A DNA stretch of 30,585 bases from a virus (taxonomy: Duplodnaviria > Heunggongvirae > Uroviricota > Caudoviricetes): IMG/VR virus record IMGVR_UViG_2728369593_000008, positions 1 through 30,585 of that record; one strand, 5' to 3'. The first letter of the stretch is position 1. Each line of letters starts with the position of its first letter. The notes beneath the pieces are model-generated. The model saw nothing but the letters and a program-made list of their open reading frames with translations. It was not told the origin of the DNA and ran no database searches. The translations under genes and the position numbers were made by a program. This document shows, one piece after another, positions 3,127 through 28,062 of the stretch.

Positions 3127-3153
3127 TTGTTAATTACTTGGGTAGCGTATTGT

Positions 3154-3594: not shown

Positions 3595-4880
3595 GCAATA
3601 TTTTTTTGGAAGATAGTGTGTTCGGCACATTATATATGCAAAAAATTTATGAGTTCTTCGAAGAGCCAAAACTTTTCTCTGTGTCTAATGAAATAAATAG
3701 CATGTTTGTTGTCTATTGGATTGGCGACGAAGAAGATTATGATAAATGGATTATCATACCGATTTCAAAAGATAGGTTGGAGCACTTCGAGCGTAAAAGA
3801 ATTGATATTAGAAGTGTTTTAGTGTATCAAGAACAAAAGCTTTGCTATCAGTTTAATATTTACTATGAAGATAATCATGTTGATGAAATAAAAATAAATG
3901 TTTCTGAGTTAAATGAGAAGATAAAAATTCCAGAACCTAACTTATATATTAGTAGTGTTCTTCCTGTATTACCTAATGGTAAAATTGGAAAGGAGGTGGA
4001 ATTCTCTACGCATGAGATTCATGTGGAGAAAACAGCAACTTCTGTGGAACCCTTGGTTTTAAAAGGCGTCTCGAAGCTTTTTGAGTGTTTTAATGATTTC
4101 TATTCATCAATATTAGCTGCATTTGATGAAAAAGATGTAATGAGTCCAGTATCTGGACGTCCTGGTTCATTTGTTCTTTCATTCAAGGCAGATAAAATGC
4201 AGCAAATTGAACCATTGCTGAAAAAACTAAATGAGCTGATTCTATCAAGAAAAGATATTATTGGTTTTGTTAAACAGAATAATATCGATGTTCAGATGTT
4301 ATCTGCTTTATTTGAAAGTGTGATAGAGACAAGTTCATGTTTTGAACTAAAAAGTAATGTGACTGATGATGTTATTCTTAGAGTCAGAAAAACTGATGCT
4401 GAGTTCTATTCTGGCACATTGATTAAAATGGCTACTCAAGTTGTTAGTAGTTATCAGGTACCGCAGGCTAACCTAATTGAACAAGTGTTTAAGATAGTTG
4501 AATTAAAATGGCAAGAGAAGCATCTGAACCTGATTAGTACTGGTCTGGATAATCGACATATATTGTATTATATTCATGCGGCCAAAATACTTGGGTTACT
4601 AAATAGTAATGGTTCTGTTTCAGCTCTTGGTCAGCAATTGGTTGAATCTGACTATGATAAGAGACTAAGAATCGCTGCACGCGGTTTTGAAACAAGTCAT
4701 TGCGGGTGGGCGTGGATTACCTGGAGTCAAGCTAAAAATCTTTCTGAGCTCGATCCACTTACAGCTGAACGATTTTTGCAAGATAGATGTATATCTCTCA
4801 GCTCCAAAACAATAAAGAGAAGGGCTTCTACTTTAAGGCAGTGGTGTGAAAAATTGCAACCTGCTTATCAGGAGCTCTGA
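3591..4880 (+). CDS. Hypothetical 429-aa protein, cargo gene B (no recognisable family)
   Basis: Long uninterrupted AT-rich ORF; GAGGTGG RBS about 6 nt upstream of the ATG; translationally coupled to gene A; followed by two hairpins. Confidence 0.65.
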   Translation: MSNIFLEDSVFGTLYMQKIYEFFEEPKLFSVSNEINSMFVVYWIGDEEDYDKWIIIPISKDRLEHFERKRIDIRSVLVYQEQKLCYQFNIYYEDNHVDEIKINVSELNEKIKIPEPNLYISSVLPVLPNGKIGKEVEFSTHEIHVEKTATSVEPLVLKGVSKLFECFNDFYSSILAAFDEKDVMSPVSGRPGSFVLSFKADKMQQIEPLLKKLNELILSRKDIIGFVKQNNIDVQMLSALFESVIETSSCFELKSNVTDDVILRVRKTDAEFYSGTLIKMATQVVSSYQVPQANLIEQVFKIVELKWQEKHLNLISTGLDNRHILYYIHAAKILGLLNSNGSVSALGQQLVESDYDKRLRIAARGFETSHCGWAWITWSQAKNLSELDPLTAERFLQDRCISLSSKTIKRRASTLRQWCEKLQPAYQEL

Positions 4881-11205: not shown

Positions 11206-11833
11206 TGTACCGCTGAGTCTGAAATCTGTCAGTGACTCCGGTGAGTTTGAAGGGTATGGCTCCGTCTTTGGTGTAAAGGACAGCCACGATGATGTGGTGA
11301 TGTCCGGGGCATTTGCTGCTTCCCTGCGGGCGTGGAGTGACAGAAAAGCGTTACCTGCGCTGCTCTGGCAGCACCGCATGGATGAACCCATCGGTGTTTA
11401 CACCGAAATGAAGGAAGACGATGTCGGGCTTTACGTCAGGGGACGGTTGCTCATTGATGATGATCCCCTCGCAAAACGCGCACATGCACACATGAAGGCC
11501 GGTTCGTTAACCGGCCTTTCTATTGGGTACGTCCTGAAAGACTGGGAATACGACCGGAGCAAAGAAGCCTTTCTGTTGAAAGAAATCGACCTCTGGGAAG
11601 TCAGCCTGGTGACGTTCCCGTCTAACGACGAGGCGCGGATCAGCGACGTCAAGAACGCACTGGCCCGCGGGGAAATCCCCGAACAGAAAAAAATCGAAAG
11701 AGTCCTGCGTGATGTCGGACTCTCCCGTACCCAGGCCAAAGCATTCATGGCCGGGGGCTATGGCGCACTGTCCCTGCGCGACGCTGAGGATGTGGGCTCT
11801 GCACTGAATGCACTGAAAAATCTGAACTTCTAA
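11183..11833 (+). CDS. Prohead protease (HK97 gp4 family)
   Basis: Protease-like motifs (EGYGSVFGVKDSHDDVV, LLWQH); ATG 11183 has an AAGGA RBS (the longer ORF begins at 11147); lies between portal and capsid. Confidence 0.8.
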   Translation: MQTKQRLDVPLSLKSVSDSGEFEGYGSVFGVKDSHDDVVMSGAFAASLRAWSDRKALPALLWQHRMDEPIGVYTEMKEDDVGLYVRGRLLIDDDPLAKRAHAHMKAGSLTGLSIGYVLKDWEYDRSKEAFLLKEIDLWEVSLVTFPSNDEARISDVKNALARGEIPEQKKIERVLRDVGLSRTQAKAFMAGGYGALSLRDAEDVGSALNALKNLNF

Positions 11834-11847
11834 TCAGGAGAAATACG

Positions 11848-13053
11848 ATGGCGGTAGATATTAAAGATGTCGAACAGGTCGCGCAGGAGCTGCAGCAGAA
11901 GTTTGACGACTTCAAAGCAAAGAACGACAAGCGCGTGGATGCGATTGAGCAGGAAAAAGGCAAGCTTGCCGGGCAGGTGGAAACCCTGAACGGAAAACTC
12001 AGCGAGCTGGAAAATCTCAAAAGCGACCTTGAAAAAGAGCTGCTTGAGCTGAAACGTCCGGCAGGTGGTGCGCAAAATAAACTGGCCACCGAGCATAAAG
12101 AAGCGTTTGTGGGCTTCCTGCGTAAAGGCCGTGAAGATGGTCTGCGCGATCTGGAGCGCAAGGCATTACAGGTGGGCACCGATGAAGACGGTGGCTATGC
12201 CGTGCCGGAAGCGCTGGATCGCAACATTCTGACCCTGCTGAAAGATGAAGTGGTGATGCGTCAGGAAGCCACGGTGATCACCGTTGGCGGTTCCGACTAC
12301 AAAAAACTGGTGAATCTGGGCGGTACGGCTTCCGGATGGGTGGGGGAAACGGATACGCGATCCCAGACTGCCACTTCCAGACTGGAGCTGATTGAACCTC
12401 TCATGGGGGAAATCTACGGCAACCCGCAGGCTACCCAGAAAATGCTGGACGATGCCTTCTTCAACGTGGAGGCCTGGATCAACAGCGAGCTGGCAACCGA
12501 ATTTGCCGAACAGGAAGAAATTGCCTTTACCTCAGGCGATGGCACCAAGAAGCCGAAAGGGTTCCTGGCGTATGAATCCACTGATGAAACCGACAAGGTC
12601 CGGGCGTTCGGCAAACTTCAGCATATTGTATCCGGCGAAGCGACCGCGGTGACCGCAGACGCCATTATCAAACTGATTTACACGCTGCGTAAGGCACACC
12701 GCACTGGCGCGAAGTTCATGATGAACAACAACAGCCTGTTTGCCATCCGTCTGCTGAAAGACACCGAGGGTAACTATCTGTGGCGTCCGGGGCTGGAACT
12801 GGGGCAGCCGTCCTCTCTGGCGGGTTACGGTATCGCTGAAAACGAACAGATGCCGGATATCGCCGCTGATGCGAAAGCCATTGCATTTGGTAACTTCAAG
12901 CGGGGTTACACCATCGTTGACCGTATCGGTACCCGCATTCTGCGTGATCCGTACACCAATAAACCATTTGTCGGTTTTTATACCACCAAGCGCACCGGCG
13001 GCATGCTGGTCGATTCGCAGGCCATCAAACTGCTGAAGATTGCAGCGGCGTAA
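11848..13053 (+). CDS. Major capsid protein (HK97 fold) with coiled-coil N-terminal delta domain
   Basis: 401 aa; heptad-like N-terminal ~100 aa; conserved capsid C-terminal region; AGGAG RBS. Confidence 0.9.
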   Translation: MAVDIKDVEQVAQELQQKFDDFKAKNDKRVDAIEQEKGKLAGQVETLNGKLSELENLKSDLEKELLELKRPAGGAQNKLATEHKEAFVGFLRKGREDGLRDLERKALQVGTDEDGGYAVPEALDRNILTLLKDEVVMRQEATVITVGGSDYKKLVNLGGTASGWVGETDTRSQTATSRLELIEPLMGEIYGNPQATQKMLDDAFFNVEAWINSELATEFAEQEEIAFTSGDGTKKPKGFLAYESTDETDKVRAFGKLQHIVSGEATAVTADAIIKLIYTLRKAHRTGAKFMMNNNSLFAIRLLKDTEGNYLWRPGLELGQPSSLAGYGIAENEQMPDIAADAKAIAFGNFKRGYTIVDRIGTRILRDPYTNKPFVGFYTTKRTGGMLVDSQAIKLLKIAAA

Positions 13054-13102
13054 TCATTCATGGGCGCGGAACCGCGCCCCCTGTTCTGAAGGGTGAAGAA
13101 TC

Positions 13103-13303
13103 ATGATCCTGAAACAAGATCTGAAATGGTCACCGGACGGTATGCGTGTTGAGGTCATTCGGGCCGGTGAGTATGACGACGGGGCGCTTCCTGCCCGGGT
13201 GCAGGAGATTGCACTTCAGGCCGGGTTAGCAGAGCGCGGAACCAGTGCAAAAAGCAGTAAAGCGACAAAAGAGAAAAAAGCCACGACCAGTAAAGAGGGC
13301 TGA
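13103..13303 (+). CDS. Small hypothetical head-module protein
   Basis: 66-aa ORF with GGTGA RBS filling the gap between capsid and connector genes; Lys/Ser/Thr-rich C-terminus. Confidence 0.4.
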   Translation: MILKQDLKWSPDGMRVEVIRAGEYDDGALPARVQEIALQAGLAERGTSAKSSKATKEKKATTSKEG

Positions 13304-13305
13304 GC

Positions 13306-13629
13306 ATGCTTCTGACAATGGAAGAGATTAAAGCCCAACTCCGGCTGGATGAGGATTTCGATACTGATGACCGCCATCTGCAACTGCTGGCCTGTGCGGC
13401 ACAAAAGCGGACGGAAACGTATCTGAACCGGAAGCTCTATGCACCGGATGAAACCATTCCGGACAGCGACCCGGACGGACTACACCTGCCGGATGATATT
13501 CGTCTGGGGATGCTGATGCTTATCAGCCATTTTTACGAAAACCGCTCGTCGGTTACGGAAGTGGAGAAACTCGACATGCCGCAGAGTTTTGGCTGGCTTG
13601 TCGGCCCGTACAGGTACTTTCCGCAATGA
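13306..13629 (+). CDS. Head-tail connector / DNA-packaging protein (phage gp6-like)
   Basis: 107 aa; MEEIKAQLRLDEDFDTDD... N-terminus typical of gp6-like adaptors; tightly spaced with neighbouring genes. Confidence 0.7.
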   Translation: MLLTMEEIKAQLRLDEDFDTDDRHLQLLACAAQKRTETYLNRKLYAPDETIPDSDPDGLHLPDDIRLGMLMLISHFYENRSSVTEVEKLDMPQSFGWLVGPYRYFPQ

Positions 13630-14036
13630 AAATTCGTCAGGCGCAGACCAGCGCAACCTACATTCTGCCGGACCCCGGTGAACTGAATAAACGCGTCCTG
13701 ATCCGCCAGCGGGTGGATATGCCCGCGGATAACTTTGGCGTGGAGTCTCAATACCCGGTTACGTTCCGGACATGGGCGAAGGTTATCCAGACCAGTGCCA
13801 CCACCTGGCAGGAAACCGCGCAGACCGGGGACGCCATCACCCATTACATCACCATTCGCTACCGCCGGGGGATCACCGCTGATTATGAGGTGGTCTGCGG
13901 TGACAGTGTGTACCGGGTGAAACGTCAGCGCGATCTGAACGGGGCGCGGCGCTTTCTGCTGCTGGAGTGTACGGAACTGGGCGAATTTACGCAGAGTCAC
14001 GGAGGCAGCAATGGCGACTTCCTTTTTTCACGTTGA
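13626..14036 (+). CDS. Head-tail joining / head closure protein
   Basis: 136 aa; position and size; start overlaps the previous stop (ATGA). Confidence 0.6.
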   Translation: MKIRQAQTSATYILPDPGELNKRVLIRQRVDMPADNFGVESQYPVTFRTWAKVIQTSATTWQETAQTGDAITHYITIRYRRGITADYEVVCGDSVYRVKRQRDLNGARRFLLLECTELGEFTQSHGGSNGDFLFSR

Positions 14037-14517
14037 TTTTCAGCAGCCCGCGGAGATGCGCTTTAACCGCGCCCGTGTCCGGCGGGCGTTTGTCACGATT
14101 GGTCAGCGTCATATGCGTGATGCCCGTCGGCTGGTGATGCGCCGTGCGCGGTCGGCACCGGGTGAAAACCCCGGTTATCAGACCGGACGCCTGGCACGTT
14201 CGATTGGTTATATGGTACCCAGAGCCAGTAAACATCGCCCCGGTTTTATGGCACGTATAGCCCCTAACCAGCGTAATGGTGAGGGAAACCGCCGCATCAC
14301 CGGTGATTTTTATCCGGCTTTTTTGTTCTATGGCGTGAGGCGAGGGGCAAAGCGTCGTCGCAGCCATCATCGTGGTGCATCCGGTGGCAGCGGCTGGCGG
14401 CTGGCTCCACGTAATAACTTTATGGTGGAAACGCTTCAAAAGAACCGCAGCTGGACACGCTATTTTCTGGCGCGGGAATTACGTAAATCACTGAAGCCGG
14501 AGCGACGACACAGATGA
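14011..14517 (+). CDS. Virion morphogenesis / tail-completion protein (HK97 gp10-like, Mu gp36-like)
   Basis: 168-aa basic protein; GGAGG RBS; position between head-closure and tail genes. Confidence 0.6.
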   Translation: MATSFFHVDFQQPAEMRFNRARVRRAFVTIGQRHMRDARRLVMRRARSAPGENPGYQTGRLARSIGYMVPRASKHRPGFMARIAPNQRNGEGNRRITGDFYPAFLFYGVRRGAKRRRSHHRGASGGSGWRLAPRNNFMVETLQKNRSWTRYFLARELRKSLKPERRHR

Positions 14518-15074
14518 AACTGACGCCTGTTATTGCTGCGCTGCGTGCCCGCTGCCCGTATTTTGAAAACCGGGTGGCAGGCGCGGCACAGTTCAAAAAT
14601 CTGCCGGAGGTCGGAAAGCTGAGACTCCCGGCGGCGTATGTGGTACCGGGTGATGATTCTCCGGGAGAAAATAAAAGCCAGACCGACTACTGGCAGGAGC
14701 TGAAAGAGGGTTTCTCCGTGGTTGTCATACTGAGTAACGGGCGTGATGAGCGCGGTCAGTTTGCCTCGTATGATGTGGTGGACGATGTCCGGCAGATGCT
14801 CTTTAAGGCTCTGCTGGGCTGGAACCCGGAGGCGTGCGGTAACCCGATTACCTATGACGGCGGCACGCTGCTGGATATGAATCGTCATGAGCTGATTTAT
14901 CAGTTCGATTTTTCGGTCATCAGCGAGCTGACTGAAGACGATACCCGCCAGCAGGATGACCTGAACAGTCTGGATGAACTGCGAACGCTGGCGATTGATG
15001 TTGATTATCTCGATCCCGGTAACGGGCCTGACGGCGATATCGAACATCACACCGAAATAACCCTTCCTTCCTGA
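14514..15074 (+). CDS. Tail terminator-like protein (Mu gp37-like)
   Basis: 186 aa; start overlaps the previous stop (ATGA); position two genes upstream of the sheath. Confidence 0.55.
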   Translation: MKLTPVIAALRARCPYFENRVAGAAQFKNLPEVGKLRLPAAYVVPGDDSPGENKSQTDYWQELKEGFSVVVILSNGRDERGQFASYDVVDDVRQMLFKALLGWNPEACGNPITYDGGTLLDMNRHELIYQFDFSVISELTEDDTRQQDDLNSLDELRTLAIDVDYLDPGNGPDGDIEHHTEITLPS

Positions 15075-15082
15075 GAATCTTC

Positions 15083-15253
15083 ATGTTTGTGAAACCTGTT
15101 AAAGGGCGGTCAGTGCCTGACCCTGCCCGCGGTGACCTTTTGCCCACCGAAGGGCGAAATGTTGACGAGAACAACTACTGGCTGCGCCGTGAAGCAGCGG
15201 GTGATATCCGGCGCGTGAATAAAAAGGTGAACACCGATGACGATAAGCTTTAA
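15083..15253 (+). CDS. Small conserved protein preceding the tail sheath (Mu gp38-like); absent from the supplied ORF track (<60 aa)
   Basis: 56 codons read manually (MFVKPVKGRSVPDPARGDLLPTEGRNVDENNYWLRREAAGDIRRVNKKVNTDDDKL); overlaps the sheath start by 17 nt. Confidence 0.45.
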   Translation: MFVKPVKGRSVPDPARGDLLPTEGRNVDENNYWLRREAAGDIRRVNKKVNTDDDKL

Positions 15254-16733
15254 CACCATTCCGTCGAATACGCTGGTTCCGCTGTTTTATGCGGAAATGG
15301 ATAACCAGGCGGCGAATACTGCACAGGACAGCGGAGCATCGCTGCTGATTGGTCATGCCAATAACGGTGCAGAGATTGTTGCCAACAGTCTGGTGCTGAT
15401 GCCATCGGCAGACTATGCACGCCAGATTTGTGGTGCGGGAAGTCAGCTGGCGCGTATGGTCGAGGCTTATCGCCAGACCGACCCGTTTGGTGAACTGTAT
15501 GTGATTGCCGTTCCGGAAGCCACAGGCGCGGCGGCAACAGTTACGCTGACGGTGACCGGCGAAGCAACCGAAACCGGCACGGTGAATGTCTATGTGGGAC
15601 GTACCCGCGTGCAGGCACCGGTGACCAACGGCGATAACGTCACGACGATTGCCAGCAGTATCAAAGATGCCATCAATGCCGTTCCGACCCTGCCGTTTAC
15701 AGCCTCATCTTCGGCTGGCGTGGTCACACTGACCGCGCGTCATAAGGGGCTTTGCGGGAATGAAATTCCTGTCAGCCTCAATTACTACGGCTTCGGTGGG
15801 GGCGAAGTACTGCCAGCGGGCGTACAGATTGCCGTGGCGACGGGGACCGCCGGAACGGGCGCTCCGGTTCTCACCGGCGCGGTGGCTGCAATGGCGGATG
15901 AGCCGTTTGATTATATCGGCCTGCCGTTCAACGACACGGCCTCCGTTAACACGCTGGTGACAGAGATGAACGATACCAGCGGTCGCTGGAGCTATGCGCG
16001 TCAGCTGTATGGTCATGTGTATACGGCAAAGACCGGCACACTGTCAGAACTGGTGAACGCAGGTGACCAGTTTAACCAGCAGCACATCACCCTGGCGGGA
16101 TACGAAAAAGAGACCCAGACGCCTGCCGACGAGCTGGCGGCAAGCCGTACCGCCCGCGCAGCGGTGTTTATCCGCAACGATCCGGCACGTCCCACGCAGA
16201 CCGGTGAGCTGGTGGGTATGTTGCCTGCGCCGAAGGGGAAACGGTTCACGATGACCGAGCAGCAGACCCTGCTGTCTCATGGCGTGGCAACGGCGTATGT
16301 CGAAAGCGGGGTGCTGCGCATTCAGCGTGATGTCACCACGTACAGGAAAAACGCTTACGGGGTTGCGGATAACAGCTACCTCGACAGCGAGACGCTGCAT
16401 ACCAGTGCGTATGTACTGCGCAAACTGAAATCCGTCATTACCAGTAAGTACGGGCGTCACAAGCTTGCCAGCGACGGTACCCGCTTTGGTCCCGGTCAGG
16501 CGATTGTCACCCCGGCGGTAATCAAAGGGGAACTGCTGGCAACCTACCGTCAGCTTGAGCGTGCGGGGATCGTGGAAAACTACGAACTGTTTAAGCAGTA
16601 CCTGGTTGTGGAGCGTGATGCCAGCGATCCGAACCGCCTGAACACGCTGTTCCCGCCTGACTATGTTAACCAGTTGCGTGTTTTTGCCGTGGTTAACCAG
16701 TTCCGTCTTCAGTATTCAGAGGAGTCTGCATAA
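15237..16733 (+). CDS. Contractile tail sheath protein (Mu gpL-like)
   Basis: 498 aa; sheath-typical size and sequence character; AAGGTGA RBS; followed directly by the tube gene. Confidence 0.85.
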   Translation: MTISFNTIPSNTLVPLFYAEMDNQAANTAQDSGASLLIGHANNGAEIVANSLVLMPSADYARQICGAGSQLARMVEAYRQTDPFGELYVIAVPEATGAAATVTLTVTGEATETGTVNVYVGRTRVQAPVTNGDNVTTIASSIKDAINAVPTLPFTASSSAGVVTLTARHKGLCGNEIPVSLNYYGFGGGEVLPAGVQIAVATGTAGTGAPVLTGAVAAMADEPFDYIGLPFNDTASVNTLVTEMNDTSGRWSYARQLYGHVYTAKTGTLSELVNAGDQFNQQHITLAGYEKETQTPADELAASRTARAAVFIRNDPARPTQTGELVGMLPAPKGKRFTMTEQQTLLSHGVATAYVESGVLRIQRDVTTYRKNAYGVADNSYLDSETLHTSAYVLRKLKSVITSKYGRHKLASDGTRFGPGQAIVTPAVIKGELLATYRQLERAGIVENYELFKQYLVVERDASDPNRLNTLFPPDYVNQLRVFAVVNQFRLQYSEESA

Positions 16734-17089
16734 TGGCCCGTATCGGGGGAACCTGTTATTTCAAAATTGACGGTCAGCAGCTATCGCTGACCGGCGGCAT
16801 TGAGGTGCCCATGAACAGGACGGTCAATGATGACATCATCGGCCTGGACGGTTCAGTGGACCGCAAGGAAACTCACCGTGCGCCTTATGTCAAAGGGACC
16901 TTCAAGGTGCCGAAGAATTTTCCGGTGAGCAAAATCACCTCGTCTGATGAGATGACCATCACTGCCGAGCTGGCGAACGGTCAGGTCTATGTATTGTCGT
17001 CCGCCTGGCTGCACGGAGAAGCGAACCATAATGCCGAAGAAGGCACGGTTGATCTTGAGTTCCACGGTGAAGAAGGGGATTACCAGTAA
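16733..17089 (+). CDS. Tail tube protein (Mu gpM-like)
   Basis: 118 aa; TAATG overlap with the sheath stop; GAGGAG RBS. Confidence 0.8.
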   Translation: MARIGGTCYFKIDGQQLSLTGGIEVPMNRTVNDDIIGLDGSVDRKETHRAPYVKGTFKVPKNFPVSKITSSDEMTITAELANGQVYVLSSAWLHGEANHNAEEGTVDLEFHGEEGDYQ

Positions 17090-17358
17090 TGAAAGAGCTT
17101 GAGTTAAAGAAACCGATTATCGCTCATGGTGAGACACTCTCCGTACTGGAGTTTGATGAACCCACCGGGAAGGATGTCCGCGAGCTGGGGTATCCCTACC
17201 AGATGAATCAGGATGAGTCCGTCAGACTTCTGGCGCATGTGGTGTCGAAATACATTGTGCGGCTGGCGAAAGTGCCGCAAAGCTCTGTCGACCAGATGTC
17301 TCCGGCAGACCTGAATGCAGCGGCGTGGCTTGTGGCTGGTTTTTTCCTCCAGGCCTGA
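17089..17358 (+). CDS. Tail assembly chaperone (short, in-frame product)
   Basis: 89 aa; directly upstream of the tape measure gene; ends 10 nt after a T_TTT_TTC slippery heptamer. Confidence 0.75.
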   Translation: MKELELKKPIIAHGETLSVLEFDEPTGKDVRELGYPYQMNQDESVRLLAHVVSKYIVRLAKVPQSSVDQMSPADLNAAAWLVAGFFLQA

Positions 17359-17507
17359 CGGCTGAATACCTCACTGATCGCTTCTTTGACTGCGCCAGCT
17401 ACTGGCGCATTAATCCCTTCGAATTGCTGAATATGCCGATCAGTGAAATTCCCTTGCTGGTCAGTCAGGCAAACAGGATAGAGCAGGAGAAACGCACACA
17501 TGGCTGA
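17089..17507 (+). CDS. Tail assembly chaperone, predicted -1 frameshift fusion product (lambda G/GT analogue)
   Basis: Slippery heptamer T TTT TTC at 17340-17346; the -1 frame is open from there to 17507 and ends 8 nt into the tape measure gene. Confidence 0.6.
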
Positions 17508-19281
17508 ATTTGAGCTTAAGGCGTTGATCACCGGTGTCGACAGGCTTTCTCCCGCGCTGTCGAAAATGCAAAAGAAAATCCGGGGATTTAAACGCCAGGC
17601 GGAAGAGGCGTCACAGGGTGGGCTGGCGCTTGGTGGCGGACTGGCAGCGGGGCTGACGCTTTCCCTGAAATCTTATGCCGATCAGGAAAACGCCGCTACC
17701 GGGCTGAAAGTCGCCATGATGGATGCGAACGGCGAGGTTGGAAAGAGCTTTCAGGACATCAATAAACTGGCTATTGGCCTGGGTAACCAGCTACCCGGTA
17801 CAACGGCTGATTTCCAGAACATGATGCAGATGCTGGTGCGTCAGGGGATCCCGGCAGAAAACATTCTGGGTGGTGTGGGTAAAGCGACAGCTTATCTTGC
17901 GGTACAACTGAAAAAAACACCGGAAGCGGCTGCCGAGTTTGCCGCAAAGATGCAGGATGCTACCGGAACGGCCTCAGAAGACATGATGGGGCTGTTCGAC
18001 ACAATTCAGAAGGCGTTTTATCTGGGCGTTGACGACACCAACATGCTGTCATTCTTCACTAAAACCAGCTCTGTTCTGAAGATGGTGAATAAGGACGGTC
18101 TTCAGGCTGCACAGAGTCTTGCCCCCATCAGTGTCATGATGGATCAGATGGGGATGAACGGGGAGTCGGCAGGTAATGCCCTGCGAAAAGTTATCCAGTC
18201 CGGATTAAGCGTTAAGAAAATCAGGGACGTCAATAAAATCATGGCCCGCCAGAAACTCGGGGTACAGCTCGATTTTACTGATGGCAAAGGGAGTTTTGGC
18301 GGTCTTGATAACATGTTCAGGCAACTGGCAAAGCTGCGAAAACTGACCGACGTTAAGCGAACCGGTGTACTTAAGGCAATATTTGGTGATGATGCCGAAA
18401 CCCTTCAGGTGGTCAATGCTCTGATCGATAAAGGAAAGGATGGTTACGATCAGATCCAGCAGAAGATGCATAAACAGGCCAGCCTGAATAAACGTGTTCA
18501 GGCACAGCTTGGTACGCTGTCCAACCTGTGGGAGGCAATGACGGGGACCGCAACTAACGGTCTTGCAGCTATTGGCGGCGCATTTTCTGGTGACGCTAAA
18601 AATATCACGCAATGGCTGGGGGAGTTGGGGGAAAAATTCACGAAGTTTGCGGATGAAAATCCCCGGGTTATTCGCGGCGTCGTCGGGCTTGCTGCCGGTC
18701 TTGCGATTCTGAAACTGGGATTGATGGGCGTGGGCAGTGCCATCAGCATTGTCAGCAGGATCATGTCGATGACGCCGATTGGCATGATTGCGACGGCGAT
18801 AGCCCTGGCTGCGGGATTAATTATCACTAACTGGGATGTTGTCGGACCTTATTTCAAGAAGCTCTGGGAAACCATTGGTCCTTATTTTGAGGCTGGCTGG
18901 GAACTCCTTAAGAAAGTTTTTGCCTGGTCGCCGCTGGGGATGGTGATCAATAACTGGGGGCCGGTTGTTAAGTGGTTTCAGGATATGTGGGACAAGCTGA
19001 AGCCAATTATTGAATGGTTTACTGATGGTGCCAGCGACACGGTGGTTGCAGCCAATGCGACTCAGTGGGGGGGCGGTGGCTATGGGGCGTACGGTACAGG
19101 CGTTTCTGCTCAGGGATACAATCCGTATCAGATAGTTCAGGCTGCGCCGAAGAAGGCTGAAGGCGAGATTACGGTCTCGTTTAAGGATGCGCCTCCCGGG
19201 ATGCGGGTGACCGATACCCGCTCCAGTGGTATCGACGTGAATCACGACGTTGGTTACACCCGGTTTGGTATGGGGGGCTAA
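17500..19281 (+). CDS. Tail tape measure protein
   Basis: 593 aa; Ala/Gly-rich helical N-terminal half, hydrophobic segment, Trp-rich C-terminus; position after the chaperone pair. Confidence 0.85.
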   Translation: MAEFELKALITGVDRLSPALSKMQKKIRGFKRQAEEASQGGLALGGGLAAGLTLSLKSYADQENAATGLKVAMMDANGEVGKSFQDINKLAIGLGNQLPGTTADFQNMMQMLVRQGIPAENILGGVGKATAYLAVQLKKTPEAAAEFAAKMQDATGTASEDMMGLFDTIQKAFYLGVDDTNMLSFFTKTSSVLKMVNKDGLQAAQSLAPISVMMDQMGMNGESAGNALRKVIQSGLSVKKIRDVNKIMARQKLGVQLDFTDGKGSFGGLDNMFRQLAKLRKLTDVKRTGVLKAIFGDDAETLQVVNALIDKGKDGYDQIQQKMHKQASLNKRVQAQLGTLSNLWEAMTGTATNGLAAIGGAFSGDAKNITQWLGELGEKFTKFADENPRVIRGVVGLAAGLAILKLGLMGVGSAISIVSRIMSMTPIGMIATAIALAAGLIITNWDVVGPYFKKLWETIGPYFEAGWELLKKVFAWSPLGMVINNWGPVVKWFQDMWDKLKPIIEWFTDGASDTVVAANATQWGGGGYGAYGTGVSAQGYNPYQIVQAAPKKAEGEITVSFKDAPPGMRVTDTRSSGIDVNHDVGYTRFGMGG

Positions 19282-19362
19282 TAGCCAGCTTAAGTACGGG
19301 TTTTGTCGTTTTGCTGATTCTTGGTAGGATTAGTCCGATTATTTAATGATGGGAATAGGGAT

Positions 19363-20040
19363 ATGAAAATTCTAACAGTTTATTCAGTTGTCGGCATGGC
19401 TCTTTTACTCGGGGGATGTACATCTCCAAAGTATAATTATTTACCAAAAACAGAAAGTTATAGTGAGCCTCCTGTAGGAAGCATTAATACAGCTTATGTC
19501 GGTGATTCGATGATTAAGCAGGGTGAGTCACAGAAGTTCGAAGGTTTGAAGGTTAATGCTCCCGCGAGAGTTTCCTGGGCTTATACGATTACTCCGGGGA
19601 TGCTGAAAAAGGTTGGTGAGGATAACAAGGCAGATTATTACTTTCTCACAAACGGTGCTGATTCAGCCAATGTGGAAAAGGCAGCTCTTGCCGATATGTG
19701 GCAGGGCATCATGGTAGAAAAGAAAAATAATGCCTTATGTGTAATAACAGTTTTTGGCGCTACCACCTGTGAAACCAACATGCCGATCGAAAAGGTTAAT
19801 CTGAACATCAGTGGTGACTCATCTTTCCAGCAAGCTCTGCTTTACAACGGAAGGGTCGGAAACAAAATCAACATTGGATATCGTGAATTTTCAGCGAATA
19901 CAGCGCGCCCGGCCTTCAACAACGATGTTGAGTATGATCTCGCGGAGTCTAAAACAATTGGCTATAAAGGCGCTAAATTCGAAGTACTTGATGCGAGTAA
20001 CCAAAGCATAAGGTATCGAGTAATAAGTAACTTTAGATAA
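19363..20040 (+). CDS. Putative lipoprotein, AT-rich moron inside the tail module (function unknown)
   Basis: Signal peptide MKILTVYSVVGMALLLGGC with lipobox LLGGC; AGGGA RBS (the ORF track begins at 19321); own downstream terminator; AT-rich relative to neighbours. Confidence 0.65.
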   Translation: MKILTVYSVVGMALLLGGCTSPKYNYLPKTESYSEPPVGSINTAYVGDSMIKQGESQKFEGLKVNAPARVSWAYTITPGMLKKVGEDNKADYYFLTNGADSANVEKAALADMWQGIMVEKKNNALCVITVFGATTCETNMPIEKVNLNISGDSSFQQALLYNGRVGNKINIGYREFSANTARPAFNNDVEYDLAESKTIGYKGAKFEVLDASNQSIRYRVISNFR

Positions 20041-20054
20041 TAGATAATTTATTA

Positions 20055-20079
20055 AAACCTGCTTCGGCGGGTTTTTTTA
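20055..20079 (+). terminator. Rho-independent terminator after the lipoprotein moron
   Basis: AAAACCTGCTTCGGCGGGTTTTTTT: GC stem (one mismatch), TTCG loop, 7-T run. Confidence 0.6.
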
Positions 20080-20093
20080 TATTCGGAGTTTAT

Positions 20094-21104
20094 ATGACGT
20101 GGAAAGACAGGCTTCAGGACGCGTCATTTCGCGGCGTACCGTTTAAGGTTGAAGAAGAAAGTGCGGGAACCGGTCGCCGTGTGGAAACACATGAATACCC
20201 GAACCGCGACAAGCCCTATACCGAAGATCTGGGAAAAGTCACTTTCCGCCCGTCCATCACAGCTTATGTGGTAGGAGATGACTGCTTTGACCAGCGCGAT
20301 CGCCTGATTGAAGCGCTGAATAAACCCGGTCCCGGCACGCTTGTCCACCCGACATATGGTGAGCTGAAAGTCTGTGTTGACGGAGAGGTTCGGGTCAGCA
20401 CATCGAAAAGTGAAGGGCGTATTGTCCGCTTTGACCTGAAGTTTGTCGAAGCAGGAGAACTCTCTTACCCCACATCAGGTGCGGCGACGGCGCAGACGCT
20501 GATGTCATCCTGTTCTGCACTGGATGACTGCATTAGTGACAGCTTCAGCGGTTTCAGTATCGATGGTGTGGCGGATTTCGTGCAGAACGACGTTATCGGT
20601 AATGCCAGCATAATGCTGGGGTATGTTTCTGATGCGATGAAAGTGGTGGATTCTGCCGTATCGGATGCCGCCAGGCTGTTGCAGGGGGATATCTCGGTAC
20701 TTCTGCCGCCGCCATCGTCAGGCAAAAATTTCGTTGAGCAGGTGCAGAAAATGTGGCGTACCGGGAAACGCCTTTATGGTAACGCTAGCGACCTGGTTAC
20801 CATGATCAAAACGCTTTCCGGTGTCAGCCTCGGCAGCGATCTGCAACCGCGCGGCGTCTGGAAAACGGACAGTAAAACCACCGCCACGGCGACGCAGCAG
20901 CGTAACGTGGTTGCCAGCACCCTTCGTACGACCGCAATCAGCGAAGTGGCGTATGCCGTCACCCCGATTGCCTGCGCCAACAACTTCCGCGGTGATGCAG
21001 AATGCCGCAGTGGGGCAGGCAACAACAGCTGCACAGAGCACCGGCTGGCCTTCCGTCACGCATCCGGCACTGAACAATGCACCGGCGGTGAAAAACACGG
21101 TTGA
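20094..21104 (+). CDS. DNA circularisation protein (Mu gpN-like), N-terminal reading frame
   Basis: GGAG RBS; N-terminus resembles the DNA-circulation N-terminal domain; the frame closes at 21104 while the apparent C-terminal part continues in another frame. Confidence 0.6.
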   Translation: MTWKDRLQDASFRGVPFKVEEESAGTGRRVETHEYPNRDKPYTEDLGKVTFRPSITAYVVGDDCFDQRDRLIEALNKPGPGTLVHPTYGELKVCVDGEVRVSTSKSEGRIVRFDLKFVEAGELSYPTSGAATAQTLMSSCSALDDCISDSFSGFSIDGVADFVQNDVIGNASIMLGYVSDAMKVVDSAVSDAARLLQGDISVLLPPPSSGKNFVEQVQKMWRTGKRLYGNASDLVTMIKTLSGVSLGSDLQPRGVWKTDSKTTATATQQRNVVASTLRTTAISEVAYAVTPIACANNFRGDAECRSGAGNNSCTEHRLAFRHASGTEQCTGGEKHG

Positions 21105-21423
21105 CCTGCCGACGTGGGAAGAACTGACTGACATTCGCGACACACTGAATACGGCAATTGATAAGGAGTTGTCCCGTACAACCAGTGATGCGCTGTTTCT
21201 GGCGCTGCGCCGGGTGAAAGCAGATCTGAATGCGGATATCAACACGCGCCTTGAACAGTCTGCACGGATCATTCAGCGCACACCGGATGAGGTTTTACCC
21301 GCGCTGGTGCTGGCGGCGACCTGGTTTGATAACGCGGCGCGTGACGCGGACATTATCCGGCGTAATGCCATTACGCATCCCGGCTTTGTGCCGGTGATCC
21401 CTCTGAAGGTGCCAGTGCAATGA
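21034..21423 (+). pseudogene. C-terminal part of the gpN-like gene in a shifted frame (frameshifted gene or assembly error)
   Basis: ORF 20821..21423 in frame 1 reads as natural protein from about 20990 onward and ends with an ATGA overlap onto the next baseplate gene; combined span 20094..21423 (~443 codons) approaches gpN size. Confidence 0.4.
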
Positions 21424-25887: not shown

Positions 25888-26331
25888 ATGGAAATGGTTT
25901 ATAGCGCCTCAAAAAATAGTTTTTTCGCTAAAAATGATGTGGCGAAATATGAACAGGCCGGATGGGAACTTGCTGATGTTGTCGAAGTGACATATGACAC
26001 TTACCTGGAATTTATTGAAGACAGAACGTTGCAAGGGAAAGTACGCATCGCGGGTGATGATGGCCTTCCCACCTGGGGGGAAATTCCACCGCCAACTCAT
26101 GAGGAACAAATTGCCGCAGCCGAACTGGAAAAGCAGCAATTGATTAATCAGGTCAACGAATACATAAACAGTAAGCAATGGCCTGGTAAAGCAGCGATTG
26201 GTCGCCTAAAAGGTGAGGAACTGGCGCAATATAATTTGTGGCTGGATTATCTGGACGCACTGGAGCTGGTCGATACTTCCGGTGCGCCAGATATTGAATG
26301 GCCTACGCCTCCGGCAGTTCAGGCCAGATGA
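25888..26331 (+). CDS. Tail fibre assembly protein (Tfa, expressed orientation)
   Basis: 147 aa; C-terminus ...LDYLDALELVDTSGAPDIEWPTPP is the Tfa motif and is shared with the inverted copy. Confidence 0.8.
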   Translation: MEMVYSASKNSFFAKNDVAKYEQAGWELADVVEVTYDTYLEFIEDRTLQGKVRIAGDDGLPTWGEIPPPTHEEQIAAAELEKQQLINQVNEYINSKQWPGKAAIGRLKGEELAQYNLWLDYLDALELVDTSGAPDIEWPTPPAVQAR

Positions 26332-26896
26332 CGTCCGGCGCTGTGCTGGTATCTGTTGCCGTCACCGCGTCAATATAATCCAGCACAGCGTTAAGTCGGG
26401 TGTTTTCTGGCTGCGTCAGCTTCCGCCCGGCCTGTAATTTCAGTTGAATCAGACTGATGGAAGCCATTGCAGCATCAATCAGCGACTGGCGCTGTGCTTC
26501 TGCCGCTTCTACTGCGGCGCTATGCTGTGCCTCGGTATCCGTCACCCATTTCTCACCATCCCATTTATCGTATGGCGTTAACGGTGAAAGCGTGACATAA
26601 CCGTCTTTGATGGCACCGATATAATCCACTGTAACAGCTGCGCCATTTTCAGTTGAGTAAACGGTCTCATTGCGATGGTCTTCTTCATGGCTCCATCCCT
26701 TACCCGTAAATACTGCCACTTTTCCCGGAATGTTTTCGCTCGGGTCAATACCAGTGGAACAGGCGGGCATACTTACGCCAGTATTAATATATTCATCAGA
26801 CCAGCCGGTATATTCATACGTTACTGCATTATAATAAAAACAACGCATATCGCCCGGCACTGTAGCCAGCCCATTTTCATCAAAAACAGGTTTCAT
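26303..26896 (-). CDS. Alternative tail fibre assembly protein (Tfa', silent orientation)
   Basis: 197 aa on the - strand, converging on tfa; C-terminus ...LDYIDAVTATDTSTAPDVIWPELPEA matches the Tfa motif. Confidence 0.8.
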   Translation of the reverse strand: MKPVFDENGLATVPGDMRCFYYNAVTYEYTGWSDEYINTGVSMPACSTGIDPSENIPGKVAVFTGKGWSHEEDHRNETVYSTENGAAVTVDYIGAIKDGYVTLSPLTPYDKWDGEKWVTDTEAQHSAAVEAAEAQRQSLIDAAMASISLIQLKLQAGRKLTQPENTRLNAVLDYIDAVTATDTSTAPDVIWPELPEA

Positions 26897-27425
26897 TATT
26901 TAGCCCTCACCAGAAAGTTAAATGCAATATTTCGTGGACGGGTTTCTGTACCTACATTTCCACTAATTTCACCATAACGTTTAACACTACGAGAGCTAAG
27001 AGCTCGTAGTGAGGAAGGCACCTTAAGACCGGGTTCGTCCGTTTTAACTATTCCCCCGTCACCATATGTAGCCAGTATTCCTGGGTTTACTCCTTCCCGT
27101 GCACTTCCTGCGGCAAGCCCGCCCCCGTCCACAATTCCATATTGTGTGCATGATCCATAATTGTGTGTGATTGCCCTGAAAGTAGGGTACGTCCGACATC
27201 AATCCCGCGCCCGTCATCCCAGATACGAATGAAATCACCGCGTGCGTCAGGTAATGCCAGCGCCGGAAACACTTTCGCCAGCACAGGGTAATCAGTGGCA
27301 GAGAATTTCGCGCCGTTGAACTTCAAAAACACCATACTGGACCAGCTATCGATTACGGTATCTGGCATTGCAGCGGACGGCCAGAAGAACGGAACGCCAA
27401 TAGCTGGAGCTCCTTCTCCCAAACC
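26896..27425 (-). pseudogene. Alternative tail-fibre variable C-terminal segment; promoterless and apparently frameshifted
   Basis: Two overlapping - strand ORFs in different frames (27087..27422 and 26896..27132); the first begins exactly at the recombination site (LGEGAPAIG...GRGIDVGR...HTIMDHAHN), the second ends ...ETRPRNIAFNFLVRAK; frame break near 27090-27150. Confidence 0.55.
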
Positions 27426-27439
27426 AACCTTTCAAATAT
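27414..27439 (+). repeat. Right recombination site of the invertible segment (inverted relative to the left site)
   Basis: TTCTCCCAAACC-AA-CCTTTCAAATAT; the inner half-site matches the left site's inner half 11/12 in inverted orientation; the outer half is degenerate. Confidence 0.6.
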
Positions 27440-27498
27440 TTTTCTGAATCAGGTGATATTTCGCCTCTTCTCCTGTTTTTACAACAGGAGAAGCACTC

Positions 27499-28062
27499 AT
27501 GATTTACGGGTATGTTCGTGTATCAACAAATCATCAGGATACAGAGTTGCAACGTCTTGCACTTGAGTCAGCTGGCTGTGAGCGAATTTATGAAGAATAT
27601 GCCAGTGGCAGAACAGCTAATCGCCCTGTGTTAAAGGAATTAATTACGGTGATGAAAAGTGGAGATGAGTTGATTGTCTGGAAGTTAGATCGGATAGGGA
27701 GAAATGTGCTGCATGCGCTATTGATGTTTCAAAATCTGCACGAAAAAGGTGTTAATTTTCGGAGTATTACAGATGGCGTAGACCTGAAAACAGCAAGTGG
27801 TCGCTATAATTTCCGTAATATTCTTTCTGCTGCGCAGTATGAATCTGATTTGAATAGCGAGCGAACTTTAGCTGGTTTGGCTATTGCCAGATCCAAAGGC
27901 CGGATTGGTGGGCGTAGACCGAAGTTTAGCGACGAGCAGTGGCAACAGATGGGAGCGCTCATAGCGGCAGGGAAATCACGGCGTTATGTTGCACGTATCT
28001 ATAACGTTGGGCTATCAACCCTATATAAACGATTTCCTGTTACTGGCATTCAAACGAAATAA
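27499..28062 (+). CDS. Serine-recombinase DNA invertase (Pin/Gin/Hin/Cin family)
   Basis: N-terminus MIYGYVRVSTNHQDTELQR with the catalytic Ser in the YxRVST motif; ...WKLDRIGRN...; C-terminal HTH (GLSTLYKRF); closely resembles e14 Pin as I recall it. Confidence 0.9.
   Translation: MIYGYVRVSTNHQDTELQRLALESAGCERIYEEYASGRTANRPVLKELITVMKSGDELIVWKLDRIGRNVLHALLMFQNLHEKGVNFRSITDGVDLKTASGRYNFRNILSAAQYESDLNSERTLAGLAIARSKGRIGGRRPKFSDEQWQQMGALIAAGKSRRYVARIYNVGLSTLYKRFPVTGIQTK

What the first reader, a model, noticed from the sequence alone, without database searches (positions are those of the whole stretch)
19282..20080. Lipoprotein moron inserted inside the tail module
An AT-rich gene encoding a predicted lipoprotein (lipobox LLGGC, Cys at residue 19 from Met 19363) with its own terminator (20055-20079) interrupts the otherwise tightly packed, overlapping tail genes between the tape measure and the gpN-like gene. 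Prophage-encoded lipoproteins in such positions are often superinfection-exclusion, receptor-masking or serum-resistance factors.
Basis: partly seen in the sequence, partly recalled or inferred. Interest (0 to 1): 0.5.

Follow-up and report, generated by a model that had tools for sequence, protein, structure and literature searches.

The report
Mobile lipoprotein gene in prophage tail
An extra, horizontally acquired gene for a predicted outer-membrane lipoprotein of an uncharacterised family sits between two tail genes of an E. coli prophage; it is a classic optional add-on ("moron") whose function, most likely protection at the cell envelope, is untested.

Summary
Window 19363..20040 (+) encodes a 225-aa protein with a textbook lipoprotein signal (Cys19). 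It is AT-rich (GC 0.42 against 0.51 for the rest of the window). A hairpin plus T-run terminator follows at 20054-20079. The gene lies between the tape measure gene and a Mu gpN-like gene.

It is not a tail part. About 1,100 of 5,426 complete E. coli genomes carry this tail junction. The slot is empty in 532. It holds a Sec-signal protein in 84, a membrane-anchored OB-fold protein in 54-79, and this lipoprotein in 54-55.

Relatives form a large unnamed family: 3,051 clusters at 50% identity, with no Pfam, NCBIfam or PADLOC match and only PHROG 1353 ("unknown function"). They occur across diderm phyla. The gene is AT-richer than its flanks in 70 of 72 loci and has no conserved partner gene. It sits next to tape measure genes of at least 8 unrelated types, in the P2 gpA-portal hotspot, in an ICE and beside integrases.

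The AlphaFold model is confident (pLDDT 88.7) and all-beta, with no structural relative. The gene is under purifying selection (dN/dS 0.05-0.11).

"Lipoprotein moron" is well supported. Superinfection exclusion is the best guess at function but is only inferred.

The parts
17500..19281 (+). Tail tape measure protein gene. It forms the left border of the cargo slot. Only its last 3-4 codons (..FGMGG*) co-vary with the cassette.
   Evidence: Pfam PF10145 at 1.2e-26 and PHROG tape measure families. Comparison of the C-termini. Homology break-points.
19282..19362 (+). Non-coding leader of the cassette. The segment from about 19300 to 19362 is conserved with the gene in other phage backgrounds. It holds a weak promoter candidate: -35-like TTGTCG at 19303-19308, a 16-nt spacer and -10-like TAGGAT at 19325-19330. 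A purine-rich ribosome-binding stretch lies at 19351-19361.
   Evidence: Alignment of seven upstream regions: TAGGATTAGTCCGAT...GGGAATAGGGATATG is shared by the window, L016, L022, L023 and L070, while sequence further upstream is unrelated. The candidate matches only 8 of 12 positions and was not reported by the promoter scan. The promoter assignment is inference.
19363..20040 (+). Gene for a 225-aa prolipoprotein. The signal peptide is residues 1-18 (19363-19416). The lipobox is L-G-G-C with Cys19 (19417-19419). The +2 residue is Thr. The mature protein is 207 aa and all-beta, with conserved Cys126 and Cys136 and a highly conserved C-terminal 70 aa.
   Evidence: ORF. PS51257 rule met. Family alignment. 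PHROG 1353 at E 8.5e-97. AlphaFold2 model with pLDDT 88.7 and pTM 0.70. dN/dS 0.05-0.11.
20054..20079 (+). Intrinsic-terminator-like hairpin (AAAACCTGC-TTCG-GCGGGTTTT) plus a T-run, starting 13 nt after the stop codon. It marks the right end of the cassette.
   Evidence: Terminator scan. Homology to prophages with an empty slot or other cargo resumes at 20055-20090.
20094..21423 (+). Mu gpN-like DNA-circularisation / baseplate-hub gene. It forms the right border of the slot. In this window an extra C at about 20962 splits it into two ORFs.
   Evidence: Pfam PF07157 and PHROG 184 / 17109. Alignment with the intact 443-aa gene of NZ_CP075462.

Best explanation
The segment from about 19268 to 20090 is a self-contained, horizontally mobile accessory cassette (a 'moron') in the variable slot between the tape measure gene and the gpN-like gene of a prophage. 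That prophage combines a lambdoid early region, an HK97-type head and a Mu-like contractile tail.

The cassette encodes a prolipoprotein. I expect it to be exported by Sec, lipidated at Cys19, cleaved by signal peptidase II and sorted by Lol to the outer membrane, because the +2 residue is Thr and not Asp. It belongs to a large, unnamed, stand-alone family with an all-beta fold that has no known structural relative. It is not part of the virion tail.

Most likely (inferred, not shown) it acts at the cell envelope of the lysogen, or of the infected cell, as an entry or superinfection-exclusion factor. It would block adsorption or genome delivery by incoming phages or other mobile elements. This would be functionally analogous to HK97 gp15, Cor, Llp, Ltp and TraT.
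For: **Shown.**
- Gene, lipobox and terminator are present.
- The AT-rich composition holds here and in 70 of 72 loci in other species, with a median of -7.4 GC points against the flanks.
- About 1,100 of 5,426 E. coli genomes carry the same TMP/gpN junction. The slot is empty in 532. It holds a 164-aa Sec-signal protein in 84, a TM-anchored OB-fold protein in 54-79, a bPH protein plus IS1 in at least one, and this lipoprotein in 54-55.
- The upstream leader travels with the gene.
- dN/dS is 0.05-0.11.
- The lipobox Cys is conserved: 208 of 238 homologues pass the strict rule and 229 of 238 a relaxed one. None has Asp at +2.
- A conserved Cys126/Cys136 pair lies on adjacent strands of a beta-hairpin.
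- No conserved neighbouring gene was found in 80 species-level loci.

**Context pointing to a role in conflict between mobile elements.**
- Homologues occupy the gpA-portal hotspot of P2-like phages, next to a retron in Klebsiella phage 4LV2017. That site is a known defence hotspot (PMC9519451).
- In an ICE the gene lies in the cargo region, about 1.4 kb from a Shedu SduA gene.
- In a Geobacter island it sits directly after an integrase, with a reverse transcriptase in the same island.
- It lies beside HicAB and an AAA_15 ATPase in a Providencia prophage.
- Some flanking genes match Old/AriA, DRT and PDC models.
- In viral contigs, 54 of 80 loci have a tape measure gene within 2.5 kb, on the same strand in 53. 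These represent at least 8 TMP clusters below 40% identity. The intervening small ORFs are themselves signal-peptide or TM proteins.

**Precedents.** The HK97 gp15 moron lies between the tail chaperone and tape measure genes and excludes phages at DNA entry (PMC3594210). The Ltp lipoprotein blocks infection by binding the incoming tape measure protein (PMC3952083).
Against: - No promoter passing the scan threshold lies upstream, so expression from the repressed prophage is unproven.
- Known receptor-masking lipoproteins are, from my own knowledge, small and host-specific. This 207-aa mature protein keeps 45-50% identity across phyla whose surface receptors differ, which argues against masking one particular receptor.
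- Many family members lie between housekeeping genes with no phage genes nearby, so the ancestral role may be unrelated to phages.
Confidence: 0.4

Rival explanations
1. It is a general envelope fitness factor unrelated to phage entry. Examples would be an orphan immunity protein or an inhibitor of periplasm-acting toxins (peptidoglycan hydrolases, T6SS or bacteriocin effectors), or a stress-protective outer-membrane lipoprotein. On this reading mobile elements carry it simply because it benefits the host.
For: - The family is widespread in diderm phyla and often lies between housekeeping genes such as PEP carboxylase, ribonucleotide reductase, topoisomerase IV, aconitase and GcpE.
- Conservation is high, with many invariant polar residues in the C-terminal 70 aa (YRE, ARPAF, VEYD). 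That suggests a conserved ligand or target rather than a fast-evolving receptor mask.
- No phage-specific partner gene was found.
Against: - No cognate toxin or effector gene is ever adjacent.
- The family is strongly and recurrently placed in phage tail-module cargo slots and known defence hotspots.
- No similarity was found to any solved structure. Known inhibitor folds such as MliC, PliC and Ivy should be among these, but I did not check them individually.
Confidence: 0.3
2. It serves the phage's own lytic cycle. Transcribed late by Q-antiterminated read-through, it would modify the envelope of the infected cell, for example by inactivating the phage's receptor on debris so that progeny are not lost. 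This is the second role described for T5 Llp (from my own knowledge).
For: - The gene has the same orientation as the late tail operon, and no strong promoter of its own was detected.
- The prophage encodes a Q antiterminator, which would read through the terminators.
- The empty slot also carries a terminator within the operon, so late transcription must pass such sites anyway.
Against: - This overlaps mechanistically with exclusion and cannot be separated from it by sequence.
- Homologues in P2-like phages lie in the early-region gpA-portal hotspot rather than the late operons, and others lie in non-phage islands where no late phage transcription exists.
Confidence: 0.12
3. It is a lysogenic-conversion virulence factor that confers serum or complement resistance or host interaction, as Bor/Iss and TraT do.
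For: - It is an outer-membrane lipoprotein encoded by a prophage.
- Its precursor is similar in size to TraT (225 aa against 243 aa).
- Related prophages carry iss elsewhere.
Against: - hhalign against F TraT and lambda Bor aligns only the signal peptide, and there is no Pfam hit.
- The family occurs in Geobacter, Thiobacillus, Nitrospirota, Omnitrophota, Planctomycetota and marine Gammaproteobacteria, none of which meets serum.
Confidence: 0.06
4. It is a structural or assembly component of the contractile tail, encoded where tail genes are expected.
For: Its position between the tape measure and baseplate-hub genes, and its recurrent adjacency to tape measure genes.
Against: - In 532 E. coli genomes the same tape measure and gpN genes are directly adjacent, and other genomes have unrelated cargo there.
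- The lipoprotein signal peptide would export it out of the cytoplasm, where tails assemble.
- Homologues occur outside phages.
Confidence: 0.02

Closest known systems
HK97 gp15 moron (Juhala et al. 2000; Cumby et al. 2012, as summarised in PMC3594210)
   Same: It is an optional, compositionally deviant gene inside the tail operon directly beside the tape measure gene. It encodes an envelope-targeted protein, and its homologues also occur outside prophages. In siphoviral relatives this lipoprotein gene occupies the same chaperone-to-tape-measure slot.
   Different: According to PMC3594210, gp15 is a small inner-membrane protein of the YebO family confined to Enterobacteriaceae. The present protein is a 207-aa mature lipoprotein, predicted to be in the outer membrane, of an unrelated family that spans several phyla. 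In this window it lies after the tape measure gene, not before it. Its exclusion activity is untested.
Phage superinfection-exclusion lipoproteins Llp (T5), Cor (phi80/N15/HK022) and Ltp (TP-J34)
   Same: All are phage-encoded lipoproteins that act at the envelope to stop infection. Ltp acts by binding the tape measure protein of the incoming phage. Cor is described as blocking FhuA function.
   Different: No sequence or fold similarity was detected in PHROG, Pfam or PDB searches. The protein is much larger and far more conserved across taxa than Llp or Cor (their sizes are from my own knowledge). Ltp is a helical-repeat protein of Gram-positive hosts. I did not compare Llp or Cor sequences directly.
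TraT (F-plasmid surface exclusion and complement resistance lipoprotein) and Bor/Iss
   Same: They are outer-membrane lipoproteins carried by mobile elements, and TraT has a similar precursor length (243 aa). TraT excludes incoming related elements.
   Different: hhalign aligns only the first 24-25 residues, which are the signal peptide. The Pfam TraT and Bor models do not match. The protein is not a member of either family.
PHROG 1353 (unknown function)
   Same: Full-length match at E 8.5e-97 over 227 of 230 profile positions. This is the one catalogued family to which the protein belongs.
   Different: The PHROG carries no functional annotation, so membership adds no mechanism.

Membership tests
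Phage moron (Hendrix/Juhala definition, as restated in PMC3594210) | Present in one phage genome but absent from close relatives ('more DNA') | tested here: met
   The same TMP/gpN junction is empty in 532 E. coli genomes, holds other cargo in more than 130, and holds this gene in 54-55.
Phage moron (Hendrix/Juhala definition, as restated in PMC3594210) | Nucleotide composition differs from the surrounding genes | tested here: met
   GC is 0.42 against 0.52-0.61 in the flanks. The gene is lower than its flanks in 70 of 72 other loci.
Phage moron (Hendrix/Juhala definition, as restated in PMC3594210) | Own factor-independent terminator downstream | tested here: met
   Hairpin at 20054-20075 plus a T-run.
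Phage moron (Hendrix/Juhala definition, as restated in PMC3594210) | Own promoter upstream | tested here: inconclusive
   No site reaches 9 of 12 in the scan. A conserved leader holds a TTGTCG-N16-TAGGAT candidate matching 8 of 12.
Phage moron (Hendrix/Juhala definition, as restated in PMC3594210) | Expressed from the repressed prophage | not testable with these tools
   This needs RNA-seq or 5'-RACE of a lysogen.
Bacterial lipoprotein (PROSITE PS51257; Lol sorting rule) | Lys/Arg in the first 7 residues, an uncharged hydrophobic stretch, and a lipobox [LIVMFWSTAG](2)-[LIVMFYSTAGCQ]-[AGS]-C with Cys at position 15-35 | tested here: met
   The rule is met with Cys19. It is also met by 208 of 238 full-length homologues, and by 229 of 238 with relaxed criteria.
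Bacterial lipoprotein (PROSITE PS51257; Lol sorting rule) | Outer-membrane sorting: no Asp at position +2 | tested here: met
   The +2 residue is Thr here. It is A, T, V, S or G in homologues, and Asp in none of 208. Actual localisation has not been measured.
TraT family (Pfam PF05818) | Sequence similarity of the mature domain to TraT | tested here: not met
   No Pfam hit. hhalign against F TraT aligns 24 signal-peptide columns only, with probability 17%.
Bor/Iss family (Pfam Lambda_Bor) | Sequence similarity of the mature domain to Bor | tested here: not met
   No Pfam hit. hhalign against lambda Bor aligns 25 signal-peptide columns only.
Known anti-phage defence proteins (PADLOC-DB 2.0.0) | Match to any of the 5,027 models | tested here: not met
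   No families at E up to 1.
Superinfection-exclusion protein (functional class) | Reduces infection by other phages when expressed, at the stage of adsorption or DNA entry | not testable with these tools
   Only the context is suggestive.
Tail structural protein | Conserved presence and synteny in all phages that have this tail module | tested here: not met
   Absent from most prophages with the same module.
PHROG 1353 | Full-length profile match | tested here: met
   E 8.5e-97, with residues 1-225 matching profile positions 1-227 of 230.

The most novel reading that the evidence does not exclude
The gene could represent a large, so far unnamed family of stand-alone outer-membrane lipoproteins with a previously unseen all-beta fold. 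On this reading the family is a broadly distributed entry-exclusion system of mobile elements: phages, P2 hotspots, ICEs and integrase islands. It would target a conserved step of genome delivery across the periplasm, possibly the ejected tape measure or channel, rather than a specific receptor. That would explain both its unusual cross-phylum conservation and its recurrent linkage to tape measure genes of at least 8 unrelated types.
Probability: 0.25. Interest if true: 0.75.

Novelty: new variant of a known kind. Interest (0 to 1): 0.45.

Why it matters
Prophage morons that encode envelope proteins are a main route by which lysogens gain phage resistance or virulence traits. Only a handful of such proteins have known mechanisms: gp15, Cor, Llp, Ltp, SieA, Bor and TraT.

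This one belongs to a family of thousands of sequence clusters that no curated database names. It has a confident predicted fold without relatives, and it recurs in cargo slots next to tape measure genes and in defence hotspots.

If it proves to be an exclusion factor, it would add a widespread single-gene defence that current defence-finding tools (PADLOC) miss. It would also offer a way into a conserved step of phage DNA entry in diderm bacteria. If it does not, it is one more ordinary accessory gene. The slot between the tape measure and gpN genes in this common E. coli prophage remains a convenient natural cargo site for comparing alternative envelope proteins.

Tried and rejected
**Searches that found no relative or no function.**
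- Pfam, NCBIfam and PADLOC scans gave no real match. The two NCBIfam hits, at E 0.008 and 0.15, fall far below their cut-offs.
- PDB sequence searches with the single protein and with a 50-sequence profile gave only chance hits at E about 0.7-0.9.
- Foldseek against BFVD and the PDB gave nothing below E 0.01 and TM-scores of 0.16 or less.
- The afdb50 library was unavailable.

**Conserved partner gene.** None was found by all-against-all clustering of ORFs in 80 loci or by Pfam counts.

**Co-variation of the tape measure C-terminus with the cargo.** Rejected. Only the last 3-4 codons travel with the cassette. The 20-aa deletion in this window's tape measure protein is independent of the cargo.

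**Literature.** Searches on accession numbers, STM2726, the PHROG id, and combinations of prophage, lipoprotein and exclusion found no study of this family. A toxicogenomics paper lists STM2726-STM2728 of Fels-2 as a differentially expressed predicted operon. This is too indirect to use. The 'lipoprotein' defence hit mentioned by Vassallo et al. could not be identified in the supplements held. Ours matches no PADLOC model in any case.

**Other scans.** An Rfam scan of the whole window gave no RNA family. The alternative TTG start at 19321 (239 aa) was rejected: homologues align from the ATG, and the signal peptide begins there.

Full report
**1. The observation**

The sequence shows an ORF on the + strand from ATG 19363 to TAA 20038-20040, encoding 225 aa. 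The product begins MKILTVYSVVGMALLLGGC. It meets the PROSITE PS51257 prokaryotic-lipoprotein rule with the lipidated cysteine at residue 19.

GC content drops to 0.41-0.43 over the gene, against 0.52-0.61 in the tail genes on either side. Over the whole gene it is 0.419, against 0.511 for the rest of the window.

Thirteen bases after the stop codon lies a nine-pair hairpin followed by a T-run (20054-20079). It is the only terminator-like site found in 18800-20500.

The upstream gene (17500-19281) is a tape measure protein (PF10145). The downstream gene (from 20094) carries the N-terminal domain of Mu gpN, the DNA circularisation / baseplate hub protein (PF07157). The neighbouring tail genes abut or overlap, whereas this gene has gaps of 81 and 53 nt.

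The one thing not seen is a convincing sigma-70 promoter upstream.

**2. It is optional cargo, not a tail part**

The window is about 97% identical to a prophage in E. coli NT1F10. That prophage has lambdoid early genes, an HK97-type head and a Mu-like contractile tail. The gene is annotated there as 'hypothetical protein'.

A probe spanning the tape measure end, the gene and the gpN start matches 1,097 of 5,426 complete E. coli genomes, but only 47 of them over 80% or more of its length. Inspection of representatives and targeted probes shows that the slot between the two tail genes varies.

| Slot content | Genomes |
|---|---|
| Empty: 60-nt spacer with its own hairpin terminator | 532 |
| 164-aa protein with a Sec signal peptide | 84 |
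| 147-aa membrane-anchored OB-fold protein, opposite strand | 54-79 |
| bPH-domain gene plus IS1 | at least one |
| This lipoprotein, including a 94-95% identical variant | 54-55 |

All of these cargos are AT-rich, with GC 0.33-0.42.

Homology between the window and the other versions breaks near the very end of the tape measure gene and resumes at 20055-20090. Only the last three or four tape measure codons differ together with the cassette.

A virion component would not be dispensable in this way. A lipoprotein signal would also remove the protein from the cytoplasm, where tails assemble.

**3. The cassette moves as a unit**

About 45-65 nt upstream of the ATG (TAGGATTAGTCCGAT...GGGAATAGGGATATG) is conserved together with the gene in Pseudocitrobacter, Citrobacter and Erwinia prophages. 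Their sequence further upstream is unrelated to the E. coli tape measure gene.

This leader contains a weak promoter candidate: TTGTCG at 19303-19308, a 16-nt spacer and TAGGAT at 19325-19330. It matches only 8 of 12 positions. I regard an autonomous promoter as possible, not shown.

The prophage has a Q antiterminator. Late transcription can therefore be expected to read through the cassette and its terminator, as it must through the terminator in the empty slot.

**4. The protein family**

The protein matches PHROG 1353 ('unknown function') over its full length, at E 8.5e-97. It matches nothing in Pfam, NCBIfam or PADLOC.

It has 1,068 relatives among clusters at 90% identity. A profile search finds 3,051 clusters at 50% identity with E up to 0.001. 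Every named member is called 'hypothetical protein' or 'lipoprotein'.

Members are about 225 aa long. The lipobox cysteine is essentially universal, and the residue after it is never Asp. By the established Lol rule this predicts outer-membrane sorting. Two further cysteines (126 and 136) are invariant and lie on adjacent strands of a hairpin in the model, which fits a disulfide in the periplasm. The C-terminal 70 residues are highly conserved.

Codon comparisons give dN/dS of 0.05-0.11, so the gene is maintained by selection.

Direct profile comparison with F-plasmid TraT and lambda Bor aligns only the signal peptides.

**5. Where the family lives**

*In annotated phages.* Homologues lie near the tape measure gene in Acinetobacter Vieuvirus and among tail genes in a Moraxella phage. 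In Fels-2 and the Klebsiella P2-like phages they lie between gpA and the portal gene, next to a retron in phage 4LV2017. That P2 site is a recognised defence hotspot (PMC9519451).

*In other genomes.* The gene follows an integrase in a Geobacter island that also holds a reverse transcriptase. It sits in ICE cargo about 1.4 kb from a Shedu gene. It lies near TelA and PLD genes in Photobacterium. In Klebsiella aerogenes it lies between an Arc/antirepressor island and the tape measure gene. In Providencia it lies directly after the tape measure gene, beside HicAB.

*Across species.* A scan of one genome per species found it in Gamma-, Beta- and Alphaproteobacteria, Desulfuromonadota, Nitrospirota, Planctomycetota, Verrucomicrobiota, Omnitrophota and Gemmatimonadota. 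In 70 of 72 of these loci the gene is AT-richer than its surroundings, with a median of -7.4 GC points.

*Neighbours.* No neighbouring gene family recurs: the commonest, an integrase, is in 10 of 80 loci. The 143 nearest flanking proteins of at least 150 aa belong to 121 Pfam families. These include phage, defence-like and plain housekeeping genes.

*In viral contigs.* Of the 192 viral contigs that encode a relative, the best 80 were examined. In 54 of these loci a tape measure gene lies within 2.5 kb, on the same strand in 53. These represent at least eight tape measure clusters that share less than 40% identity. The small ORFs lying between the two genes are themselves signal-peptide or transmembrane proteins.

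The flanks of tape measure genes thus act as a general cargo site for envelope proteins. The first described moron, HK97 gene 15, illustrates this (PMC3594210).

**6. How it most likely works**

*Shown.* The segment is a mobile, selected, stand-alone cassette that encodes a predicted outer-membrane lipoprotein and is not a tail component.

*Inferred.* It is exported by Sec, lipidated, and sorted by Lol to the outer membrane, where it changes what happens to incoming elements at the envelope.

I rank entry or superinfection exclusion first, at about 0.4. The reasons are the company the gene keeps: cargo slots filled with envelope proteins, the P2 hotspot, an ICE cargo region that also holds a defence gene, and integrase islands. 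There are also the precedents of gp15, Cor, Llp, Ltp and TraT.

The main argument against simple receptor masking is the 45-50% identity retained across phyla. This points to a conserved target.

That same point, together with the many chromosomal copies among housekeeping genes, supports the chief rival, at about 0.3: a general envelope-protective or inhibitor/immunity protein that mobile elements carry because it helps the host.

A role in the phage's own lytic cycle (about 0.12) cannot be separated from exclusion by sequence. Serum resistance (about 0.06) is unlikely given the family's environmental distribution. A structural role (about 0.02) is effectively excluded.

**7. Comparison with what is known, and novelty**

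By the classical definition this is a moron. Three criteria are met, one (own promoter) is inconclusive, and one (expression in the lysogen) cannot be tested here.

In kind it resembles the gp15, Cor, Llp, Ltp, TraT and Bor group. It is not a member of the TraT or Bor families, where a direct test failed. It belongs to no family with a solved structure and matches no PADLOC defence model; Cor and Llp were not compared directly. I therefore class it as a new variant of a known kind.

It is a solid, well-defined candidate rather than a surprise. Its interest lies in the size and anonymity of the family, the apparently new fold, and the recurrent linkage to tape measure genes.

**8. Other things seen**

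- Between the Q antiterminator and the lysis genes the window carries a two-gene unit (3127-4880) with weak but paired matches to the PD-T4-10 defence system.
- The gpN-like gene of this window is broken by one extra C at about 20962, relative to the intact gene in a 97%-identical prophage.

Noticed in passing
window 3127-4880 (+): Two overlapping genes (155 aa and 429 aa; the second has Pfam DUF6575 + DUF7226) lie between the Q antiterminator (1764-2558) and the lysis cassette. They match PADLOC PD-T4-10_A (3.4e-10) and PD-T4-10_B (9.8e-8), so they are a PD-T4-10-like defence candidate in the classic Q-to-holin moron slot. The region does not align with the otherwise 97%-identical prophage of NZ_CP075462.
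   Followed up: partly
window about 20962 (gene 20094-21423): The Mu gpN-like DNA-circularisation / baseplate-hub gene is split into two overlapping ORFs (20094..21104 and 20821..21423). The cause is one extra C in a C-run, relative to the intact 443-aa gene of NZ_CP075462. This is either a real inactivating frameshift (a defective prophage) or a homopolymer sequencing error.
   Followed up: partly
L012-L015 (E. coli IHE3034, 181.1, L725, 2196), the site equivalent to window 19282-20093: The same inter-tail-gene slot holds alternative AT-rich cargo. One is a 164-aa Sec-signal protein with no Pfam or PADLOC match (84 genomes). Another is a TM-anchored tRNA_anti-like OB-fold protein on the opposite strand (54-79 genomes). 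A third is a bPH_1 gene truncated beside IS1. The slot is empty, with its own terminator, in 532 genomes.
   Followed up: partly
L110, L114, L126, L135, L142 (viral contigs), between the lipoprotein gene and the tape measure gene: The small ORFs lying between the lipoprotein gene and the tape measure gene in unrelated siphovirus-like contigs all begin with signal peptides or transmembrane segments. One has a zinc ribbon plus a TM segment. Tape-measure-flanking slots therefore seem to collect envelope-targeted accessory proteins in general.
   Followed up: no
window 26303-28062: A Pin/Hin-type resolvase-invertase gene (27499-28062) lies next to an oppositely oriented tail-fibre assembly gene (26303-26896, minus strand). 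This looks like an invertible tail-fibre host-range switch, as annotated (pinE/tfaE) in the related prophage.
   Followed up: no
window 19040-19130 (tape measure C-terminal region): The tape measure protein of this window and of NZ_CP075462 lacks about 20 residues of a Gly/Tyr/Pro-rich low-complexity stretch. That stretch is present in the versions from IHE3034, 181.1, L725, 2196 and GN06156. The difference is independent of which cargo follows.
   Followed up: partly
NZ_CP104632.1 (hit H11), 94760-95571: One 100%-identical copy of the cassette lies on a 100,861-bp record classed as a plasmid of E. coli AHM21C2872I. This may be a phage-plasmid or an assembly artefact.
   Followed up: no
L009 (Photobacterium sp. 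TLY01), 11547-20361: Next to a chromosomal family member lies a minus-strand cluster encoding TelA, a PLD-like protein, a 1,623-aa DUF3686/DUF7902/AAA protein and a 695-aa protein with no recorded Pfam hit. It resembles a conflict system.
   Followed up: no
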